64,000 nt of DNA from a virus. The position numbers and the translations under genes were made by a program. The notes under the pieces were generated by a model that saw only the letters and a program-made list of their open reading frames with translations, did no database searches and was not told the DNA's origin. Below are positions 5,857 to 42,224 of the stretch, in pieces; the stretch's first letter is position 1, and each line of letters starts with the position of its first letter. Location of the stretch: the IMG/VR virus record IMGVR_UViG_3300015371_000015, positions 15,661-79,660 of that record; one strand, written 5' to 3'.

Positions 5857-6139
5857 GAAGCTAGCAATAGCTCTGGGCAACCGCGATGAAGTGCACTTCC
5901 AGCCTCCTGAGGATGCCAAGATGGGGGACCCATGCATTGTGTATGAGCGAGACGATGCTTCTATCGATTACGCGGACAATCTCCCGTATCGGGACGCGCT
6001 TCGCTATCAGGTCACGCTCATGACCAAGAATCCGGACAGCGACGTCTATAAGGAGCTTCAGAAGCTTCCTTACTGTCGTTTCCAACGGCACTTTGCGACG
6101 TCCGGTCTCAACCATGACGTCTTCGTGATTTACCACTAG
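5828..6139 (+). CDS. Tail terminator
   Basis: VHFQPP..PCIVYER..YADN..YQVT pattern; precedes major tail. Confidence 0.7.
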   Translation: MARPRIILHEKLAIALGNRDEVHFQPPEDAKMGDPCIVYERDDASIDYADNLPYRDALRYQVTLMTKNPDSDVYKELQKLPYCRFQRHFATSGLNHDVFVIYH

Positions 6140-6152
6140 GAGGAATCCAAGC

Positions 6153-7028
6153 ATGACTAAGCTCACTTGGGACCAGACCGGCCAGCGTCTCTACGAGACC
6201 GGCGTCGATCACGGTGTCCTGTACATCCCGGACGTTTCGGGTAACTACTCCGACGGAGTGGCCTGGAATGGTCTGACCACGGTCACGGAATCGCCTTCGG
6301 GCGCCGAGGCCAACGCCCTGTACGCCGACAACATCAAGTACCTGAACCTGGTCTCCGCGGAGGAGTTCGGCGCGACGGTCGAGGCGTACATGTACCCGCC
6401 GGAGTTCGGCCAGTTCGACGGCACGGCTATGCCCGTCGTCGGTCTGTCGGTCGGTCAGCAGGCTCGCAAGATCTTCGGCCTGTGCTACCGCACCCGCCTC
6501 GGCAACGATGTCGAGGGTTCGGACTACGGCTACAAGCTGCACCTCATCTACGGCGCCCAGGCGGCTCCGTCGGAGAAGGCGTACGCTTCCATGAACGACT
6601 CGCCTGAGGCGATCACGTTCTCGTGGGAGCTCACGACGACTCCCGTATCGGCCGGAGACGACCTCAAGCCGACCTCCCAGATCGTCATCGACTCCACTCA
6701 GGTGGACTCCGACACTCTGGCGGCTCTCGAGGTCATCCTCTACGGCTCGACCGGCGTGGAGCCCCGGCTTCCGCTGCCCGAAGAGGTCATCGGCATGTTC
6801 ACCGAGACGCTGCCGACCGTCGAGACCGTGGAGCCGAGCTACAACGCGGCCACCGACACCATCACCTTCCCCGACGTCACCGGAGTGATCTACTCGGTGG
6901 GCGGCGTGGACAAGGCGCCTGGTTCGACCATGGTCATCACCGAGGACACCGTTGTCGAGGCACGTCCGGCTGCCGGTTTCCGGTTCACCGAGACCTCGGA
7001 CAACGACTGGACGATCGAATACAGCTGA
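6153..7028 (+). CDS. Major tail (tube) protein with C-terminal Ig-like extension
   Basis: RBS AGGAGG; YETGVDHGVLY, AWNGLT, YADNIKY, GYKLHLIYG. Confidence 0.9.
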   Translation: MTKLTWDQTGQRLYETGVDHGVLYIPDVSGNYSDGVAWNGLTTVTESPSGAEANALYADNIKYLNLVSAEEFGATVEAYMYPPEFGQFDGTAMPVVGLSVGQQARKIFGLCYRTRLGNDVEGSDYGYKLHLIYGAQAAPSEKAYASMNDSPEAITFSWELTTTPVSAGDDLKPTSQIVIDSTQVDSDTLAALEVILYGSTGVEPRLPLPEEVIGMFTETLPTVETVEPSYNAATDTITFPDVTGVIYSVGGVDKAPGSTMVITEDTVVEARPAAGFRFTETSDNDWTIEYS

Positions 7029-35027: not shown

Positions 35028-35612
35028 ATGACAGACCTTAGTGATGGCTTCGGTGACGATCTATCGATCGAAGAACGAATCATCGCTAACGAACGGCTGC
35101 TGAAACTCAAGGCAGCTGAGCGAAACAGAATCCCTGAATTCTGGGACGACGTGTTGCAGGAAGGCCGCATCGTCCAATGGCAAGTCATGGAGAAGAGACC
35201 CGAGGCTGCGCCTGCCTATATTTCCGCGTCCATGTCAAATCGGATACAGGAAGTGATCAATAGACAGACGTGGACCGGGTATGAGTCAAGACACGGACGT
35301 CCTACGGATCCCATCCGACGCAAAGACCGAGACTCATTCGATGATCCTGACTTCCACACCGTGGCAAGCGCTGCCGAGACCTTAGACAAGGTCATATTTG
35401 CTTACCACCACGGAGAGATTCTACAAGCTCTCAACTCGCTCACTGAGCGACAGCGAGAGTACGTATATTTGCGATTCTGGCAAGGCCTGACCAATCCAGA
35501 GATCGCTGCACGCTTCGAGATGTCCAGATCGGCTGTCGAGCGTGAATGGAACACCAAGACCAAGCCTGCTCTACTCGAGCAGCTGGAACACTTGCACGAA
35601 CTAGTGGGTTGA
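35028..35612 (+). CDS. Sigma-70 region 4 (ECF sigma-like) protein
   Basis: ALNSLTERQREYVYLRFWQGLTNPEIAARFEMSRSAV. Confidence 0.8.
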   Translation: MTDLSDGFGDDLSIEERIIANERLLKLKAAERNRIPEFWDDVLQEGRIVQWQVMEKRPEAAPAYISASMSNRIQEVINRQTWTGYESRHGRPTDPIRRKDRDSFDDPDFHTVASAAETLDKVIFAYHHGEILQALNSLTERQREYVYLRFWQGLTNPEIAARFEMSRSAVEREWNTKTKPALLEQLEHLHELVG

Positions 35613-37632: not shown

Positions 37633-37745
37633 CATGTGAGCATGGGGGATCGGGATTAAAAGAACCAAGATTGGGGCCGGTACCCGCCTCAGCGCCCGGT
37701 CCCCCGTGTGCATATTTCAGAACTCGCGCGAAAAACAACTTCTAT

Positions 37746-37843
37746 AATGAGACGTACTGAAGCCAATCAGTTCAAATGTCGTAAGAAGCCAACTACCGAG
37801 CTATCCCTAGCTTAACTGTAGGTTGCGAAGACGACGTCTCATT
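37746..37843 (+). ncRNA. Candidate hairpin sRNA or structured leader
   Basis: aatgagacgt/acgtctcatt terminal stem with internal hairpins; follows motif 37724. Confidence 0.5.
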
Positions 37844-38135: not shown

Positions 38136-38950
38136 ACTCGACTGAGCGAGTCTAAATAGGCCTTAAGCTCAGAGCGGCCCTCTTCGGAGGGTGTGGACTG
38201 TCTGGCGAGACAGAACTTTCTCAGCGAAACTGATCTGGCATACCGGAATCCGGCGTGCTTGCGGGAGTAGGTGTACAACTGAGGATTGGTTAAACAAAAA
38301 CACGTGGTGGCAAGTTCGAGGCAGCCCTGGAGTTGGCCGCTAAGCAGTCGGGTCTCCAGCCCTCTCGGTCTCTGACTCTTCATAGAGAAGAACCGAGGCA
38401 CTACCACCGCTCGCCCAGCACCTGAGGCGTGCAATAAACGGGGTGGCCCCAGTATCAGGCCATGTCAAAAGGCACCCCACCTTGACGTATGTCATATTTG
38501 TTAGAGACCTAGGAGGTGAGAGCGATGCAAGCCCGAGGGTTGTAATCACCCTCCTACAAGTCAACATAGTCTTGGTCATGGCAAGGACCCCCATTACGAT
38601 GGTAAGGCCCCTCCCATGATCATATTCGCATGGAGGCACTACACTCCGTGCGGCAAACCCGTCCCCTACAAACACCCAAGCTTCCGCATAGACGGTCATG
38701 AACGTAAAAGCGGACTGCTGAACTCTAGTGAGCCCAGACAACCTGCGTAGCGGCTTTATGTGGCGCCATCAGGAATCTGCAAGCCTAGAGCAACTGGAGC
38801 GGCCCATAGTGGCCTGGTTACAAATGCACGAGACAAGCACACCGGTCAGGTTAATGTATCCATATTCGTTGTGAATCACTGGACTAAACTGAACCGCGTA
38901 CATGAGGTGAGCTGCCACCATGGTTGATTCCAAGCGCAGTGAAGTTTAAG
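38136..38950 (+). ncRNA. Candidate large (~800 nt) structured ncRNA, or cluster of ncRNAs
   Basis: No credible + strand ORF; dense hairpins (ccctc-ttcg-gaggg, ctgtc/gacag, gtggtgg/ctaccac, ggggtg/cacccc, taggagg/ctccta, ctctag/ctagag, taaact/agttta). Confidence 0.6.
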
Positions 38951-38955
38951 CATTA

Positions 38956-39086
38956 CCCGTTCGGGTCGAATGCAGTCGGTTAACTTGAGTTATTGGTTCG
39001 AGTCCAATATGCCTTCTTTGAGGGCATTGGCGCAATTGGCAGCGCAAAGTACATAAAACCCGGCAGCACCCTTACATCCGAACGGG
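38956..39086 (+). ncRNA. Y RNA 1 (YrlA-like; permuted T arm, acceptor hairpin, D arm)
   Basis: cccgttcgg/ccgaacggg stem; GGGTCGAA/ACATCC; T loop TTCGAGT; D arm TGGCGCAATTGGCAGCGC; directly upstream of Ro60. Confidence 0.88.
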
Positions 39087-39115
39087 CTTCATCTATCCCA
39101 CGCAGAGGAGAACGC

Positions 39116-40888
39116 ATGACCACGACTGACCCGTACGCGGGTTTCGGTACGCGACAGACCCACCAGCAGCACCGTGCTCCCGACCGACCGGAGCAGGTCA
39201 AGAACAACGCCGGCGGCTACGTCTTCCAGATCGATCCCCTGACCCAGCTCAAGCGGTTCCTGACCATCGGGACCGTCGGGGGATCCTACTACGTCGGCGA
39301 GAAGGAACTGACCCGTGAGAACGGTGAGATGATCCTGAGCTTCACGCGCAACCCCACCACGCACGCCCAGCTCGTCGACACCATCGTCGAGATCAGTCTC
39401 GCGGGCCGTGCACCCAAGCAGAACCCCACGCTGTTCGCCTTGGCCATCGCGTGCCAGCACGGCGACACCGCTTCCAAGCAGTACGCGCGCAAGCAGCTCA
39501 CGAAGGTCGTCCGCACCGGTACCCACCTGTTCCTCTTCGTGGGTTACGTCCGGCAGTTCGGTGGCTGGAATCGTGGCATGCGGCGTGCAATCGGTGCGTG
39601 GTACTCCGAGAAGGACCCGGACAAGCTGGCCTACCAGCTGATCAAGTACCGGCGTAGGAACGACCTCACCCACCGTGATGTCTTGCGGATGGCTCACCCG
39701 AAGATCAAGATGGACGAGGTCAACGAGCGGATCGCCATGCTCGATGCCGCGTTCCGGGCGAACGAGGACGACCCGAACACCAAGGAGCTCATGGCGGATG
39801 CTCTTCGGGCTCGCAACGAGCGGCTGAAGCTCCGGTCGAACATCGACTGGACCATCAAGTACCAGAACCGGGACTACTCGGCGCTGGAGGGTGGAACCTC
39901 GAAGATCATCGAGGCGTTCGAGGCCTGCTGGCGTGAGCCGGAGAACATCCCGGCAATCATCAGCGACAACCCGGGGCTCCCCTGGGAGGCCTTGCCGGAC
40001 GAGGCTCTGACCAAGGTGGAGACGTGGGACCGGCTGCTGGACAACGGCATGCCCATCCACGCTCTGCTGCGTCAGCTCCCCCGTCTGACCAACCTCGGGA
40101 TGCTGCCTCCGATGGGGGCCGGGCGTACGGACGATGTCATCCACCAGCTCCTGAACCGTGAGGCGCTGGAGAGGGCTCGGATGCACCCGATCAACGTCCT
40201 GGTGGCGCTCAAGACCTATGCCTCCGGGCAGGGCGAGCGCAACCACTGGTCGCCGAACACCAAGATCATCGACGCGCTGGACGAGATGTTCTACCGCTCG
40301 TTCGGTTTCATCGAGCCCACAGGCAAGCGCATCTTGCAGGCCTGTGACATCTCGTACTCGATGATGGGAGCGAGGACCTTCGGTGGGAAGAAGCCTTTCC
40401 CGCTCTCACCGGCTGAGATCACCGGTGCGATGGCGTTGGCGACGGCTCACATCGAGCCCAACCACCACATCGTCGGGTTCTCCTCGCTCTCGGGGCAGAA
40501 CAACCGGGATCCGCGGGACTCGAAGCTGATCGACCTCAACATCAGCAAGCGGCAGCGCATGGACGACGTCATCAACACGATGTACAACCGGACCTTCGGT
40601 GGTACGGACGTCGCGCTGCCCATGGTCGCCGCCTTGGAGCACGGGTGGAAGATCGACACGTTCGTGATCTACACGGACAACGAGACCTGGCACGGGGATA
40701 TTCATCCTCACCAGGCGCTCGAGCGTTACCGCCGGCAGACCGGAATCGACGCACGCCTCGTGGTGTGTGCGATGTCTGCCTCCCACTTCAGTGTGGCCGA
40801 CCCGAAGGACCCCCGTCAGCTCGACATCAGCGGCTTCGACAGCGCGATGCCTCAGCTGATCTCGGAGTTCTCGGCCGGCAACATCTGA
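39116..40888 (+). CDS. rsr: Ro60/TROVE-domain RNA-binding protein (Rsr ortholog)
   Basis: QVKNNAGGYVF, LKRFLTIGT.GGSYY, RTGTHLF, YQLIKY..R..THRDVLR.AHP; vWA MIDAS DISYSM, GGTD, YTDNETW; GFDS; RBS GAGGAG. Confidence 0.96.
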   Translation: MTTTDPYAGFGTRQTHQQHRAPDRPEQVKNNAGGYVFQIDPLTQLKRFLTIGTVGGSYYVGEKELTRENGEMILSFTRNPTTHAQLVDTIVEISLAGRAPKQNPTLFALAIACQHGDTASKQYARKQLTKVVRTGTHLFLFVGYVRQFGGWNRGMRRAIGAWYSEKDPDKLAYQLIKYRRRNDLTHRDVLRMAHPKIKMDEVNERIAMLDAAFRANEDDPNTKELMADALRARNERLKLRSNIDWTIKYQNRDYSALEGGTSKIIEAFEACWREPENIPAIISDNPGLPWEALPDEALTKVETWDRLLDNGMPIHALLRQLPRLTNLGMLPPMGAGRTDDVIHQLLNREALERARMHPINVLVALKTYASGQGERNHWSPNTKIIDALDEMFYRSFGFIEPTGKRILQACDISYSMMGARTFGGKKPFPLSPAEITGAMALATAHIEPNHHIVGFSSLSGQNNRDPRDSKLIDLNISKRQRMDDVINTMYNRTFGGTDVALPMVAALEHGWKIDTFVIYTDNETWHGDIHPHQALERYRRQTGIDARLVVCAMSASHFSVADPKDPRQLDISGFDSAMPQLISEFSAGNI

Positions 40889-40900
40889 GTACGTAGAGAA

Positions 40901-41040
40901 GCAGGGCCGGGTCGAAGATGATCGGTTAACTGGATAACATTGGTTCAATCCCAATCCAGGTCTGGGCCCACAAGCCTGCCTGGCTCGCCACTTCGGTGGC
41001 AGATGAAAACATCCGGTCGTCACCCCACATCCGGCCCTGC
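40901..41040 (+). ncRNA. Y RNA 2 (T arm, acceptor-like stem, cUUCGg hairpin in D position)
   Basis: gcagggccgg/ccggccctgc; GGGTCGAA..ATCGGTTA; attgg-ttcaatc-ccaat; ACATCC. Confidence 0.85.
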
Positions 41041-41082
41041 CTCTCGCGTAGCAAACAACCTCCATAATAGGAGGTACCTATC

Positions 41083-41343
41083 ATGCCAAATCCCGACCGC
41101 CCGTTCAAGATCAGTGACCATGCCCGAACCAAGATGAGTTTGCGCGCGATTACGAAGGACGAAGTGTTCGACACCATCCTCGCCTACGAGAAGACAGACA
41201 AGAAGAGTAACCAGAAGCGTTATTTCAAAGGACGTCTTTGCGTAGTCGTGGGAGAAGGTCGCACCTTCGACACCATCATCACCGTGCTCCTCAACGAGTT
41301 CGACACATGGACTGATCACCACGCAAGAGATCGCAAGAAGTAG
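41083..41343 (+). CDS. DUF4258-like small protein (predicted RelE/colicin-like RNase fold)
   Basis: ISDHARTKMSLRAITKDEV...LCVVV...IITV pattern; own motif 41044, RBS AGGAGG, terminator 41349-41383. Confidence 0.65.
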   Translation: MPNPDRPFKISDHARTKMSLRAITKDEVFDTILAYEKTDKKSNQKRYFKGRLCVVVGEGRTFDTIITVLLNEFDTWTDHHARDRKK

Positions 41344-41412
41344 TACCCAAGCCTCACCCCGTTTCCACAAGGGGTTAGGTTTCGCTGCGGTCGCGAGGAA
41401 AACAACGCTTGT

Positions 41413-41465
41413 AATGAGAGGTAGGGTAGTAATACCCGGTAACCCGCCAGTTACGACCTCTTATT
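41413..41465 (+). ncRNA. Three-way-junction hairpin after motif 41391 (leader of the Y RNA cluster)
   Basis: aatgagaggt/acctcttatt enclosing gggta-gtaa-taccc and gtaac/gttac. Confidence 0.45.
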
Positions 41466-41488
41466 TCTTTGTCTCGGCTTGACTTAAA

Positions 41489-41625
41489 CAGCTCTGGGTC
41501 GAAGATGCATCGGTTATCAAATTGCCAGGGAGAAATCCCACCCCCCTAGATAGGCTAATTACCTATCGACTTACTGATCACACTATTAGTAAGCAAACCG
41601 GTCATCACCTCTACATCCAGAGCTG
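41489..41625 (+). ncRNA. Y RNA 3 (divergent three-hairpin payload)
   Basis: cagctctgg/ccagagctg; GGGTCGAA, ATCGGTT/AACCGGT, ACATCC. Confidence 0.83.
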
Positions 41626-41635
41626 CCTAAATTTC

Positions 41636-41709
41636 GATGCGGGTCGCTAGTCTTCGGTTATCAAACTCTCAATTTGAAGCCATCCGGAGACGTCAACCAC
41701 ATCCGCATC
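41636..41709 (+). ncRNA. Y RNA 4 (minimal; displays anticodon stem-loop Glu-CUC)
   Basis: gatgcgg/ccgcatc; gtcttcgg/ccggagac; tcaaa-CTCTCAA-tttga. Confidence 0.82.
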
Positions 41710-41717
41710 ACCTAAGA

Positions 41718-41822
41718 CGGACCTTGGGCTATAGCAGGCGGCCCTTGGACGAAGGCCTCTAGGATACCGTCCAGAAGAGGACCAAGGCCGGTCGGGATGA
41801 CCTCCCGCGGTATCCAAGTCTG
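41718..41822 (+). ncRNA. Unclassified structured RNA between Y RNAs 4 and 5
   Basis: cggac/gtctg, cggcc-ttgg/ccaa-ggccg, tggacg/cgtcca, cctct/agagg, ggataccgt/gcggtatcc. Confidence 0.45.
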
Positions 41823-41835
41823 CCCCCTAAGCTTC

Positions 41836-41976
41836 AGCGACGTGGGTCGAAAGAGAATCGGTTAACTTTCCTCTCAAGAAAAAGACCCGGGTTCGAATCC
41901 CGGCGGGTGCATAGCACCTGTAGTTTAGTGGCCTAAAACTCAAAACATCGGTCCTCACCACTACATCTACGTCGTT
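41836..41976 (+). ncRNA. Y RNA 5 containing a complete circularly permuted tRNA-Glu(CUC) mimic
   Basis: Anticodon arm tttc-CTCTCAA-gaaa; T arm ccggg-TTCGAAT-cccgg; acceptor cgggtgc-ata-gcacctg; D arm gttt-agtggccta-aaac. Confidence 0.9.
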
Positions 41977-41985
41977 TAGTTTTGT

Positions 41986-42126
41986 GTCAGAGCGGGTCGA
42001 ACTGGAATTCGGTTACCTCTGCGGAAGGAGTATTGTCGGTTCGAGTCCGGCCGTCCCCGTTAGGGGATGTAGTGTAATTGGCAACACGCTAAAATCCCGG
42101 AATCCTCCCTTTACATCCGCTCTGAC
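41986..42126 (+). ncRNA. Y RNA 6 containing a circularly permuted tRNA mimic with Arg-GCG loop
   Basis: cct-CTGCGGA-agg; T arm gtcgg-TTCGAGT-ccggc; acceptor cgtcccc-gtta-ggggatg; D arm gtgt-aattggca-acac. Confidence 0.88.
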
Positions 42127-42141
42127 CCATATTTGCACAAC

Positions 42142-42224
42142 CCTGTTCGGGTCGAATTGAATCGGTTATCATTCGACTGCTAATCGGAAACCGACGCCGG
42201 TTCAAACCCCTACATCCGAACAGG
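42142..42224 (+). ncRNA. Y RNA 7 (minimal; displays anticodon stem-loop Ser-GCU)
   Basis: cctgttcgg/ccgaacagg; ttgaatcgg/ccggttcaa; ttcga-CTGCTAA-tcgga. Confidence 0.85.

What the first reader, a model, noticed from the sequence alone, without database searches (positions are those of the whole stretch)
38956..42224. Phage Ro60 with an array of seven Y RNAs: constant scaffold, swappable tRNA-derived payloads
Seen: seven elements (38956-39086, 40901-41040, 41489-41625, 41636-41709, 41836-41976, 41986-42126, 42142-42224) flank a TROVE/Ro60 gene. Each has a terminal stem of different sequence that still pairs, a conserved GGGTCG(A)...ACATC(C) helix with a bulged C, and a second covarying stem ending in CGGTTA; the inserts differ. 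Known: Ro60/Rsr binds a bulged-C helix in Y RNAs; bacterial YrlA RNAs have a permuted tRNA-like domain and occur in some phages; in Deinococcus a Y RNA tethers Rsr to PNPase; to my knowledge loci usually carry one or two Y RNAs. Inference: this is a modular RNA-programmed system in which one Ro60 ring presents a repertoire of tRNA mimics to different host proteins.
Basis: partly seen in the sequence, partly recalled or inferred. Interest (0 to 1): 0.95.

Follow-up and report, generated by a model that had tools for sequence, protein, structure and literature searches.

The report
Phage Ro60 with seven Y RNAs
A soil phage carries the gene for the ring-shaped RNA-binding protein Ro60 flanked by seven small RNA genes that share one conserved "handle" but carry different tRNA-like inserts. 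This is a large example of a widespread arrangement in phages and bacteria of the Actinomycetota that I could not find described in print.

Summary
Seven elements sit at the stated coordinates, all on the Ro60 strand. They share a two-helix scaffold: a terminal stem of free sequence, an invariant GGGU(C)G/CAUCC helix with a bulged C, mostly GNCGAA, and a second stem ending in UCGG-UUA. The inserts differ.

The scaffold is a real, covarying RNA family. I found it beside Ro60 genes in cultured actinophages, IMG/VR contigs and Actinomycetota chromosomes. These are YrlA/YrlB-type Y RNAs, although Rfam's YrlA model scores them below threshold, here and in every related locus tested.

Seven copies is not unique:
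- Bacterial loci carry 1-4.
- Cluster C mycobacteriophage Catera and Microbacterium phage FuzzBuster carry 3.
- A Mycobacterium abscessus prophage carries 6.
- The two nearest relatives of this phage carry at least 9, interleaved with real tRNA genes.

"tRNA-derived payloads" holds fully for Y1, Y5 and Y6 and partly for Y2. Y4 and Y7 carry only an anticodon-arm-like hairpin, and Y3 carries other hairpins.

The proposed role, one Ro60 ring presenting different tRNA mimics to different host proteins, is untested. No RNA data were available.

Earlier notes from this scan report similar Ro60-plus-RNA arrays on other phage DNA. I found no paper describing arrays of this size.

The parts
37724..37752 (+). 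Promoter-like phage motif TCGCG..AACAA..ATGAGA, the nearest one upstream of the Pistol / Y1 / Ro60 block
   Evidence: 19 copies in the window, all on +, against 0.97 expected. Its function as a promoter is inferred.
38136..38198 (+). Pistol self-cleaving ribozyme, a conserved upstream neighbour of Ro60 in this phage clade
   Evidence: Rfam RF02679, 60.8 bits (gathering 34.5). Pistol also lies 1.4-2 kb upstream of Ro60 in relatives L299 and L315, 41 bits each.
38956..39086 (+). Y1: handle plus a closed-acceptor tRNA-like module (T arm, 8-bp acceptor-like stem, U-G linker, D arm), with no hairpin before the T arm. It ends 30 nt before the Ro60 start codon.
   Evidence: R1 118.6 bits. Rfam YrlA 35 bits over the full model, below the gathering score of 69. 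Fold z -3.3. P1/P2 pairs.
39116..40888 (+). Ro60/Rsr orthologue, 590 aa (TROVE + vWA)
   Evidence: Pfam; PDB 1YVP, 9NEN and 2NVO; 354 phage records hold relatives annotated 'Ro-like RNA binding protein'.
40901..41040 (+). Y2: handle plus a T arm, a long bulged hairpin and a cUUCGg hairpin in place of a D arm (YrlB-like class). It starts 13 nt after the Ro60 stop codon.
   Evidence: R1 109.5 bits; fold z -4.9. Orthologues a1 (L299) and b1 (L315) have an identical P1 and a covarying T stem.
41083..41343 (+). 86-aa DUF4258 ORF lying inside the array; not a conserved partner of the system
   Evidence: Pfam PF14076 1.6e-6, 28.8 bits (cut-off 25). No homologue within about 4-6 kb of Ro60 in 171 other loci. 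Only a 41%-identical partial match about 2.5-3 kb upstream of Ro60 in L299/L315.
41391..41465 (+). Second promoter-like motif (41391-41419) followed by a three-way-junction hairpin and a U-rich tract, 24 nt before Y3
   Evidence: z -2.2. Whether it drives or terminates transcription into Y3-Y7 is unresolved.
41489..41625 (+). Y3: handle plus three hairpins (GAAA tetraloop hairpin, 5-bp stem with 7-nt loop, 9-bp hairpin); no T or D arm
   Evidence: R1 104.5 bits; fold z -6.0.
41636..41709 (+). Y4: mini form, handle (GUCGCU variant of the motif) plus one 5-bp hairpin with the 7-nt loop CUCUCAA
   Evidence: R2 63.3 bits. Orthologues a6/b8 keep C-U...A-A in the loop, vary the middle triplet (CUC/ACA/AUA) and covary in the stem.
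41836..41976 (+). Y5: handle plus hairpin with loop CUCUCAA, 4-nt linker, T arm, 7-bp closed acceptor-like stem, UA, D arm
   Evidence: R1 83.8 bits; Rfam YrlA partial 27.2 bits. Orthologues a7/b9 have loop CUCACAA.
41986..42126 (+). Y6: handle plus short hairpin with loop CUGCGGA, T arm, 7-bp closed acceptor-like stem, UA, D arm
   Evidence: R1 101.5 bits; Rfam YrlA partial 24.5 bits. Orthologue a8 is 77% identical with compensatory changes in P1 and the acceptor-like stem.
42142..42224 (+). Y7: mini form, handle plus one 5-bp hairpin with loop CUGCUAA
   Evidence: R2 67.2 bits. Its orthologue a9 in L299 has the same P1 and the same loop but a complete tRNA-like module.

Best explanation
The locus encodes a phage Ro60 ring protein and seven Y RNAs of the actinobacterial YrlA/YrlB type.

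Each RNA has two parts. The first is a constant Ro60-binding handle. It consists of a terminal stem P1 ending in the invariant GGGU(C)G/CAUCC helix with a bulged C, the GNCGAA motif, an asymmetric C-rich internal loop, and stem P2. P2 corresponds to the 'anticodon stem' of published YrlA and ends in UCGG followed by UUA. The second part is a variable effector module:
- Y1, Y5, Y6: a complete tRNA-like body with a closed acceptor stem.
- Y2: a T arm plus other hairpins.
- Y3: three unrelated hairpins.
- Y4, Y7: a single anticodon-arm-like hairpin.

Most likely the RNAs are transcribed with Ro60 and its neighbours as precursors and cut out by the host's tRNA-processing enzymes. Each is then bound by Ro60 on its handle. 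The effector module then tethers or gates the ring towards host RNA-metabolism or tRNA-binding proteins. PNPase is the precedent. Several RNAs would give one protein several specificities.

Shown here: the sequence anatomy, the covariation, the exclusive genomic association with Ro60, and homology of layout to loci in close relatives of M. smegmatis, where Rsr binding was demonstrated in print. Inferred: transcription, processing, Ro60 binding and any partner protein.

The confidence of 0.7 is for the identification as Ro60-partner Y RNAs. The tether-with-several-partners function alone I would put near 0.35.
For: Seven copies of the handle lie only at the Ro60 gene, all on its strand.

Across 78 family members from phages, 89.4% of cells pair, against 66% in shuffles and 34-42% with slid partners. 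20 of 21 pairs show compensatory changes. The pair formed by the Y of GYCG covaries without a single exception (CG 60, UA 18).

The same handle lies directly upstream of Ro60 in Actinomycetota chromosomes. This includes Mycolicibacterium wolinskyi, with a 150-nt unit plus a 121-nt unit. That is the layout published for M. smegmatis YrlA and YrlB, which were immunoprecipitated with Rsr and are processed from one precursor (PMC4201824).

The GNCGAA motif of that paper is present in 6 of 7 copies (motif). Y1, Y5 and Y6 match the Rfam YrlA T/AS/D core and have 7-8-bp acceptor-like stems, the feature that made M. smegmatis YrlA an RNase P substrate.

In the nearest relatives the units are interleaved with genuine tRNA-Met and tRNA-Lys genes. 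Spacers of 9-15 nt between Y3/Y4, Y5/Y6 and Y6/Y7 fit co-transcription and processing.

Precedents for the tether role: Deinococcus Rsr-Y RNA-PNPase (PMC4201824) and Thermus phage phiLo Ro60, which binds two Yrl RNAs and host PNPase in vitro (PMC12135203).
Against: There is no expression or binding evidence. No RNA run holds the locus.

Rfam YrlA scores are below the gathering threshold (35, 27 and 24.5 against 69). The metazoan Y_RNA family gives no hit even at E 10.

No sigma-70-type promoter was found. The promoter-like motif before Y3 is followed by a terminator-like hairpin, so the transcription units are unresolved.

No PNPase, RtcB or other obvious partner gene was found among the 20 neighbouring ORFs scanned.

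Y3, Y4 and Y7 lack the T/D elbow that the YrlA structure paper proposes as the effector-binding site, so a single tRNA-elbow-binding partner cannot explain all seven.
Confidence: 0.7

Rival explanations
1. The array is a set of Ro60-stabilised decoys or sponges. The tRNA-like bodies and the isolated anticodon-arm-like hairpins imitate particular tRNAs and soak up host tRNA-directed nucleases or other tRNA-binding defence factors. These could be anticodon nucleases or VapC/MazF-type toxins, which are abundant in Actinomycetota. Ro60 mainly protects and positions the decoys. This is compatible with their being Y RNAs; it differs in what the modules are for.
For: The first hairpin of the insert has a 7-nt loop with the anticodon-loop signature (pyrimidine, U, NNN, purine) far more often than shuffles: 25 of 78 long forms and 14 of 87 short forms, against about 1.9 expected and a maximum of 7-8 in 200 shuffles.

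Among orthologues, C-U and A-A flank a varying middle triplet while the stem covaries (Y4: CUC/ACA/AUA; Y5: CUC/CAC).

Y7 has lost the whole tRNA body of its orthologue but kept the loop CUGCUAA.

In M. abscessus prophages, 3 of the 4 differences among five otherwise near-identical 148-nt orthologues lie in this loop. The same three loop variants recur on two backgrounds.

This phage has no tRNA genes of its own.

A preprint reports that the Ro60-like gp130 of phage Bas63 counters the ppl defence system (PMC11482910).
Against: No nuclease or defence target is identified. Many loops do not fit the pattern. Loops of Y6 and Y7 are fully conserved between relatives, not diversifying. The sequences are related, so the shuffle test overstates significance. 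In published YrlA this hairpin occupies the variable-loop position and may simply be a relic of the ancestral tRNA. The ARAGORN test of a 'complete tRNA' was non-discriminating.
Confidence: 0.2
2. The elements act mainly in cis as processing and stability punctuation for the operon's transcripts, or as autoregulatory Ro60 binding sites on its own mRNA, rather than as free trans-acting RNPs with partner proteins.
For: Y1 ends 30 nt before the Ro60 start codon and Y2 begins 13 nt after its stop codon. The other units fill intergenic space between ORFs. A self-cleaving Pistol ribozyme is a conserved upstream neighbour. In relatives the units sit among tRNAs, which are classic processing punctuation.
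Against: Five units in a row with no ORF between them (Y3-Y7), and 9 in relatives, exceed any punctuation need. Payload structures such as acceptor-like and T stems covary between orthologues, which points to selection on the excised RNA. M. smegmatis YrlA/YrlB accumulate as discrete Rsr-bound RNAs.
Confidence: 0.07
3. The array is a decayed remnant of a phage tRNA gene cluster, made of rearranged tRNA pseudogenes with no present function.
For: Ro60 genes of related actinophages sit in or beside tRNA clusters. T- and D-arm sequences are present. No functional tRNA is called in this genome.
Against: The handle is conserved with compensatory changes over hundreds of loci. Orthologous units are retained between phages whose Ro60 proteins are only 55-57% identical, with covarying stems. 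The permuted order (T arm before D arm) is constant.
Confidence: 0.03

Closest known systems
Mycobacterium smegmatis Rsr with YrlA and YrlB (Chen et al. 2014, PMC4201824)
   Same: Same phylum-level family. Tandem RNAs lie on the Ro60 strand next to the gene. They share the GNCGAA motif in the 5' strand of the terminal stem, a long form with T arm, 7-bp closed acceptor-like stem and D arm, and a shorter second RNA. The published RNAs are processed from one precursor. My models find a 150-nt unit plus a 121-nt unit in the same position in M. wolinskyi.
   Different: Two RNAs there, seven here (nine or more in the nearest relatives). Here one unit is upstream and six are downstream of Ro60, with an ORF inside the array. 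There are extra insert classes: mini forms with a single hairpin, and Y3 with non-tRNA hairpins. [quoted passage not shown]
Salmonella YrlA/YrlB in the rsr-yrlBA-rtcBA operon; Rfam RF02553; YrlA crystal structure (bioRxiv 10.1101/312249)
   Same: Ro60-binding stem continuing into an 'anticodon-stem' helix. Conserved UA after that helix (UUA here). T arm 5' of D arm. Closed acceptor-like stem.
   Different: The Rfam model scores only 24-35 bits against a threshold of 69 and finds nothing in 10 related actinobacterial or actinophage loci. There is no RtcB/RtcA nearby. Salmonella YrlA has no anticodon-loop-like hairpin; Y5 and Y6 have one before the T arm, and in Y4 and Y7 it is the whole insert.
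Deinococcus radiodurans Rsr-Yrn1/Yrn2-PNPase (RYPER) and Thermus phage phiLo Ro60 with Yrl1/Yrl2 (PMC12135203)
   Same: Ro60 plus several adjacent Y RNAs (four small RNAs upstream of rsr in Deinococcus, two in phiLo). The Y RNA acts as a tether to an exoribonuclease. phiLo shows that a phage Ro60 binds phage-encoded Y-like RNAs and host PNPase in vitro.
   Different: Those RNAs are fewer and, per Chen 2014, arose independently of YrlA. No PNPase link is shown here.
Vertebrate Y RNA families (two to four distinct Y RNAs per species; PMC4201824 introduction)
   Same: One Ro60, several Y RNAs sharing the Ro60-binding bulged helix and differing in the loop module.
   Different: Rfam's metazoan Y_RNA model gives no hit. 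The inserts here are tRNA-like. The genes form a tight operon-like array.
Phage Bas63 gp130, a Ro60-like protein next to a tRNA block (PhageMaP preprint, PMC11482910)
   Same: Phage Ro60-like gene beside a run of tRNA-like genes. The authors guessed that some annotated tRNAs are Y RNAs. It is the only functional phenotype I found for a phage Ro60-like protein (counter-defence).
   Different: A distant phage of E. coli. Its RNAs were not characterised. I did no sequence comparison with it.

Membership tests
Bacterial/phage Y RNA of YrlA/YrlB type | Encoded within about 4 kb of a Ro60/Rsr orthologue, on the same strand | tested here: met
   All seven lie within 1.4 kb of the Ro60 ORF on the + strand. 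The same association holds in phage, prophage, metagenome and bacterial loci.
Bacterial/phage Y RNA of YrlA/YrlB type | Long stem formed by the 5' and 3' ends, carrying the conserved Ro60-binding sequence GNCGAA(N0-1)G in the 5' strand | tested here: met
   P1 and P2 are present in 7 of 7. GNCGAA is present in 6 of 7 (Y4 has GUCGCU). The strict N0-1-G spacing holds in Y1, Y2, Y3 and Y5 only. Covariation across 78 relatives.
Bacterial/phage Y RNA of YrlA/YrlB type | tRNA-like domain: T arm, closed acceptor-like stem, D arm, in that order (defines YrlA; YrlB has only a T arm) | tested here: met
   Met by Y1, Y5 and Y6 (alignments). Y2 has a T arm only (YrlB-like). Y3, Y4 and Y7 have none, so they are Y-RNA-like by handle only.
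Rfam RF02553 (YrlA) | Score at or above the curated gathering threshold (69 bits) | tested here: not met
   Best 35.0 bits (Y1), then 27.2 (Y5) and 24.5 (Y6); no hit for the others. The model also misses all units in 10 actinophage and actinobacterial Ro60 loci, so it does not cover this clade.
Bacterial/phage Y RNA of YrlA/YrlB type | Accumulates as a discrete small RNA bound by Ro60 | not testable with these tools
   No RNA run holds the locus. Binding needs a bench test.
Ro60/TROVE protein | TROVE (HEAT-repeat ring) plus C-terminal vWA domain above Pfam cut-offs; homology to solved Ro60/Rsr structures | tested here: met
   PF05731 134.9 bits and PF25045 173.4 bits. 1YVP 9.3e-95, 9NEN 2.4e-87, 2NVO 1.7e-77.
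Canonical tRNA genes | Contiguous cloverleaf recognised by ARAGORN or by Rfam RF00005 at threshold | tested here: not met
   ARAGORN finds 0 tRNAs in the window and in the rest of the genome. Rfam tRNA reaches 21.4 bits against 29 on Y5. Computationally un-permuted Y5 and Y6 are called tRNAs, but so are controls with a shuffled anticodon-arm segment.
Metazoan Y RNA (Rfam Y_RNA) | Match to the Rfam covariance model | tested here: not met
   No Y_RNA hit in 37.5-43 kb even at E up to 10.

The most novel reading that the evidence does not exclude
Phage and prophage Ro60 loci of Actinomycetota encode evolving repertoires of five to nine or more Ro60-anchored tRNA and anticodon-arm mimics. Their 'anticodon' triplets diversify under an arms race with host tRNA-directed immunity. 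In that reading, Ro60 plus the Y-RNA array is a programmable anti-defence RNP rather than an RNA quality-control device.
Probability: 0.15. Interest if true: 0.85.

Novelty: new variant of a known kind. Interest (0 to 1): 0.6.

Why it matters
Ro60 and Y RNAs are conserved from bacteria to humans, yet what the variable half of a Y RNA recruits is known in only a few cases. Phage arrays of 5-9 or more Y RNAs share one handle and carry distinct, conserved inserts. They offer a natural series of "one protein, many adaptors" in which to ask what each insert binds.

Cultured, genetically tractable relatives carry the same family:
- Microbacterium phage FuzzBuster: 3 units.
- Mycobacteriophage Catera (cluster C1): 3 units.
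- M. abscessus prophage prophiGD43A-5: 6 units.

The question is therefore directly testable.

The work also shows two annotation gaps. Rfam's YrlA model misses the whole actinobacterial clade. Units can also be mis-annotated as tRNAs, as with tRNA-Thr in prophiGD43A-5.

Tried and rejected
1. ARAGORN on computationally un-permuted inserts. Y5 is called tRNA-Glu(CUC) and Y6 tRNA-Arg(GCG). With enumerated junctions, controls in which the putative anticodon-arm segment was shuffled were called just as often across 90 elements. The test does not discriminate, and I do not claim 'complete tRNAs' from it.

2. RNA evidence. No RNA holder was listed among 22 runs. Laying contigs of four DNA runs gave identical sequence and no variants or joints of use.

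I used a scaffold-only model from 15 short forms instead.

4. R2 with filters off on the window aligned only 6 units, and locally, so I counted P2 pairs by script.

6. An exact-motif scan of viral contigs gave one hit per locus and no near relatives.

7. DUF4258: a PDB sequence search gave nothing meaningful, and tblastn found no homologue near Ro60 in 171 loci. I rejected it as a conserved component.

8. The 126-nt gap between Y4 and Y5 is not significantly structured (z -0.7), so I rejected it as an eighth unit.

9. Alternative local pairing of GYCGA with UCGGU (a D-arm-like hairpin) was rejected. The Y covaries perfectly with the 3' strand (78 of 78), not with the invariant G.

10. attP or integration-site and mobile-repeat readings were rejected. 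No integrase turned up among the ORFs I scanned around the locus, and the copies are about 50% identical with compensatory changes, not recent repeats.

Their counts are lower bounds.

Full report
**What is there**

The window is the right-hand 64 kb of a 79,660-bp IMG/VR virus record that CheckV rates complete. At 39116-40888 (+) lies a 590-aa Ro60 orthologue. Pfam gives TROVE 5.8e-39 and Ro60-vWA 4.8e-51. PDB sequence matches are Xenopus Ro60 at 9e-95, human Ro60 at 2e-87 and Deinococcus Rsr at 2e-77.

Shuffles predict 0.01. It occurs nowhere else in the genome. One element (Y1) ends 30 nt before the Ro60 start codon. Y2 starts 13 nt after the stop codon. Y3-Y7 follow after an 86-aa ORF, with spacers of 9-15 nt inside the Y3/Y4 and Y5/Y6/Y7 groups.

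**Anatomy of the shared handle**

The parts are:
- A terminal stem P1 that differs in sequence in every copy yet forms 9-11 standard pairs.
- The invariant GGGU, then a bulged C, then G paired with CAUCC on the 3' side.
- GNCGAA in six of seven copies (Y4 has GUCGCU).
- An asymmetric internal loop: 1-3 nt on the 5' side and 5-7 C-rich nt on the 3' side.
- A second stem P2 of 8-9 pairs, with a covarying outer half and a constant UCGG/CCGG inner half, followed by UUA.

Every element folds better than its shuffles (z -2.9 to -6.0). A covariance model built from the seven copies (R1) finds all seven with filters off at 47.7-118.6 bits. Nothing else in 36-45 kb scores above 7 bits.

**The inserts**

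- Y1, Y5 and Y6 contain a T arm, a 7-8-bp acceptor-like stem closed by a 3-4-nt loop, a two-base linker (UA in Y5 and Y6, UG in Y1) and a D arm. This is the permuted order that defines YrlA. Rfam's YrlA model aligns to them but only at 35, 27 and 24.5 bits, against a gathering score of 69.
- Y2 keeps a T arm, followed by a long bulged hairpin and a cUUCGg hairpin.
- Y3 has three hairpins and no T or D arm.
- Y4 and Y7 are 74 and 83 nt and carry a single 5-bp hairpin with a 7-nt loop (CUCUCAA and CUGCUAA).

"tRNA-derived payload" is therefore fully justified for three units, partly for one, and debatable for three.

ARAGORN finds no ordinary tRNA gene in the window or in the remaining 15.7 kb.

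**Is the handle a real RNA family?**

I fetched these Ro60 loci:
- Eight cultured actinophages.
- 80 IMG/VR contigs.
- 80 Actinomycetota genomes.
- 46 metagenome contigs.

I built a second, scaffold-only model R2 from 15 short-form units of several phages. Both models hit almost only the Ro60 strand, usually in tandem directly upstream of the gene. The exceptions are a few minus-strand hits about 1.5-3 kb upstream of Ro60 in the Promicromonospora loci and one related genome.

On 78 distinct members:
- 89.4% of cells form standard pairs, against 66% when partners are shuffled and 34-42% when partners are slid by 1-3 columns.
- 20 of 21 pairs show changes on both sides.
- The Y of GYCG pairs with its 3' partner in 78 of 78 sequences (C-G 60, U-A 18).

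That alignment was fitted to the model, which favours the structure, but the slid control and the exception-free covariation are hard to explain otherwise. The bulged C and the following G are invariant in the seed.

**Link to experimentally known Y RNAs**

Chen et al. 2014 (PMC4201824) defined the GNCGAA(N0-1)G motif. They predicted YrlA-like RNAs near Ro60 in 254 bacteria and 22 phages. In M. smegmatis they showed that a ~147-nt YrlA and a second RNA, YrlB, lie upstream of rsr, co-precipitate with Rsr and are processed from one precursor. YrlA's 7-bp acceptor-like stem was cleaved by RNase P and received CCA.

My models find a 150-nt unit followed by a 121-nt unit directly upstream of Ro60 in Mycolicibacterium wolinskyi, and single long units in M. 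chubuense and M. chlorophenolicum. This is the same layout. I therefore file the window's elements as members of this actinobacterial YrlA/YrlB-type family by homology.

Rfam's RF02553 does not cover the clade. At its gathering score it finds nothing in ten actinophage or actinobacterial Ro60 loci.

**How unusual is seven?**

The union of R1 and R2 hits (E <= 0.01) over 91 phage or viral sources gives these copy numbers per locus:

| Copies | 0 | 1 | 2 | 3 | 4 | 5 | 6 | 7 |
|---|---|---|---|---|---|---|---|---|
| Loci | 14 | 14 | 27 | 12 | 11 | 10 | 2 | 1 (this window) |

- FuzzBuster and the cluster C1 mycobacteriophage Catera have three.
- Gordonia phage Sixama has about five, mostly interleaved with tRNAs.
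- The M. abscessus prophage prophiGD43A-5 has six in tandem in a 1.4-kb stretch with no annotated protein gene. One of them is annotated tRNA-Thr(tgt).
- Chromosomal loci of Nocardia and Cellulomonas reach four.
- The two nearest relatives of this phage's Ro60 (55-57% identity; metagenome contigs L299 and L315) carry at least nine units each. All are downstream of Ro60 and are interleaved with genuine tRNA-Met(CAT) and tRNA-Lys(UUU) genes.

All counts are lower bounds.

**Orthology of units**

Units in the window have clear orthologues in L299 (a) and L315 (b): Y2 = a1 = b1, Y4 = a6 = b8, Y5 = a7 = b9, Y6 = a8, Y7 = a9. Stems in both handle and insert change by compensatory substitutions, for example P1 and the acceptor-like stem of Y6 against a8.

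The inserts are thus conserved, individually selected members rather than freely shuffled cassettes. Remodelling does occur, however. Y7 shares its P1 and its loop CUGCUAA with a9, but a9 has a complete T/acceptor/D body that Y7 lacks. The T-arm-plus-hairpins class (Y2) and the mini class also recur in unrelated phages.

**The anticodon-loop-like hairpin**

In many family members the first hairpin after UUA has a 7-nt loop of the form pyrimidine-U-NNN-purine-A.
- Long forms: 60 of 78 have a hairpin with a stem of at least 3 bp and a 7-nt loop (shuffled mean 34). Of these, 46 have U at loop position 2 (shuffled 8) and 25 have the full Y-U...R pattern (shuffled 1.9, maximum 7 in 200).
- Short forms: 14 of 87 show the full pattern, against 1.8.

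Among orthologues the flanking C-U and A-A stay while the middle triplet changes (Y4 CUC, a6 ACA, b8 AUA; Y5 CUC, a7/b9 CAC), with covarying stems. In five near-identical 148-nt orthologues from M. abscessus prophages, three of the four differences fall in this loop. The same three variants (UGU, UCU, UGCU) recur on a second sequence background.

Against over-reading this:
- The sequences are related.
- Many loops do not fit.
- Y6 and Y7 loops are fully conserved between relatives.
- The published YrlA structure places this region in the variable-loop position.
- A published origin model derives YrlA from a tRNA dimer, which would leave the first tRNA's anticodon arm exactly here as a relic.
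- My ARAGORN 'un-permutation' test was non-discriminating.

**Surroundings**

All genes run on the + strand. Those identified include a 1,241-aa primase-polymerase, thymidylate synthase, a single-strand annealing protein, a helicase and a sigma-factor-like protein at 35028-35609. I found no RtcB, PNPase or RNA ligase among the 20 ORFs scanned.

A motif TCGCG..AACAA..ATGAGA occurs 19 times, all on +, against about 1 expected. One copy lies at 37724, ahead of a small ORF, a Pistol ribozyme (38136-38198, 60.8 bits) and an ~750-nt ORF-free stretch leading to Y1. Another lies at 41391, followed by a three-way-junction hairpin and a U tract just before Y3. Pistol is also present upstream of Ro60 in L299 and L315.

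The 86-aa DUF4258 ORF between Y2 and Y3 has only seven close relatives in the protein collection. It is not found beside Ro60 elsewhere, so I treat it as an insertion, not a component.

**Mechanism**

Best supported is that these are Ro60-partner Y RNAs, made as precursors with neighbouring genes (and with tRNAs in relatives) and excised by tRNA-processing enzymes. Ro60 binds the handle, and the insert acts as an adaptor or gate. This follows established knowledge of Rsr-Y RNA-PNPase in Deinococcus and Salmonella, and the in vitro phiLo Ro60-Yrl-PNPase complex (PMC4201824, PMC12135203).

Shown here are the anatomy, the covariation and the genomic association. Transcription, processing, binding and partners are inferred.

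The main rival for function is a decoy role against tRNA-directed host nucleases. It rests on the loop data above, the lack of phage tRNAs, and a preprint in which a Ro60-like phage protein counters a defence system (PMC11482910). Cis-acting punctuation and decayed tRNA genes are unlikely.

**Novelty**

Phage Ro60 genes with predicted Y RNAs are known (22 phages in 2014; two RNAs in phiLo in 2025). Three full-text searches and seven papers read turned up no description of arrays of five to nine units, of their insert classes, or of the anticodon-loop-like hairpin. Two reviews that might cover this were not held.

Earlier notes of this scan report similar Ro60-like-protein-plus-RNA arrays (4-11 units) in other phages. 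I did not test those. I rate this a new variant of a known kind: a real and rich example, but on a continuum and not the largest of its clade.

Noticed in passing
window 38136-38198 (+); L299 2964-3023; L315 3567-3626: A Pistol self-cleaving ribozyme lies 1-2 kb upstream of Ro60 on the same strand in this phage and in both nearest relatives. It is followed here by an ~750-nt ORF-free stretch up to Y1. It may cut the operon transcript ahead of the Ro60/Y-RNA block.
   Followed up: partly
window, 19 sites from 17645 to 55746 (+), e.g. 37724-37752 and 41391-41419; ORF 35028-35609: A fixed-geometry motif TCGCG-N5-AACAA-...-ATGAGA occurs 19 times, all on the + strand (about 1 expected). A phage sigma-factor-like protein (PHROG sigma factor hits, 1e-6) is encoded at 35028-35609 and could be its reader.
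   Followed up: partly
window 41083-41343 (+): An 86-aa DUF4258 protein is encoded inside the Y-RNA array. Only seven close relatives (72-81% identity) exist in the 5.8-billion-protein collection, and it is not linked to Ro60 in other loci. Its function is unknown.
   Followed up: partly
L180 (Mycobacterium phage prophiGD43A-5, MW584167) 1427-2311: Six tandem Y-RNA-like units fill a stretch upstream of the Ro-like gene that has no annotated protein gene. The record's 'tRNA-Thr(tgt)' (locus 1581-1659) lies inside the second unit and looks like a mis-call. A BrnT-like toxin/antitoxin pair sits just upstream.
   Followed up: partly
L023, L026, L038, L042, L043, L048, L092, L180 (M. abscessus prophage arrays), first long unit: Among otherwise near-identical orthologous units the 7-nt loop after UUACC varies (CUUGUAA, CUUCUAA, CUUGCUAA, AUUGUAA). 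The first three of these variants recur on two different backgrounds. In one background, 3 of 4 differences in 148 nt fall in the loop.
   Followed up: partly
L299 7576-7649 and 9197-9270; L315 7539-7612; L015 (Sixama) 6004-6425: In relatives, genuine tRNA genes (Met-CAT, Lys-UUU) and, in Gordonia phage Sixama, a tmRNA sit between or next to Y-RNA-like units. This suggests mixed tRNA/Y-RNA operons. The window's phage has no tRNA gene at all.
   Followed up: partly
L012, L013, L014, L015, L180, L028, L104, L107, L118, L022: Rfam's YrlA model (RF02553) at its gathering score detects none of the units in ten actinophage or actinobacterial Ro60 loci. The public model does not cover this clade.
   Followed up: yes
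window 42142-42224 vs L299 8623-8769: Y7 looks like an internal-deletion derivative of a full tRNA-like unit. MAFFT aligns its P2 3' strand (CCGGUUCAA) with the 5' half of the orthologue's T arm.
   Followed up: no
L299 7943-8191 and 7238-7432; L315 7970-8218 and 7206-7400: Two small ORFs (82 and 64 aa, no Pfam match) occupy matching gaps inside the arrays of both relatives. This recalls the ORF inside the window's array.
   Followed up: partly
window 41710-41835: The 126-nt gap between Y4 and Y5 has no handle motif and does not fold better than shuffles (z -0.7). Its role is unknown.
   Followed up: yes
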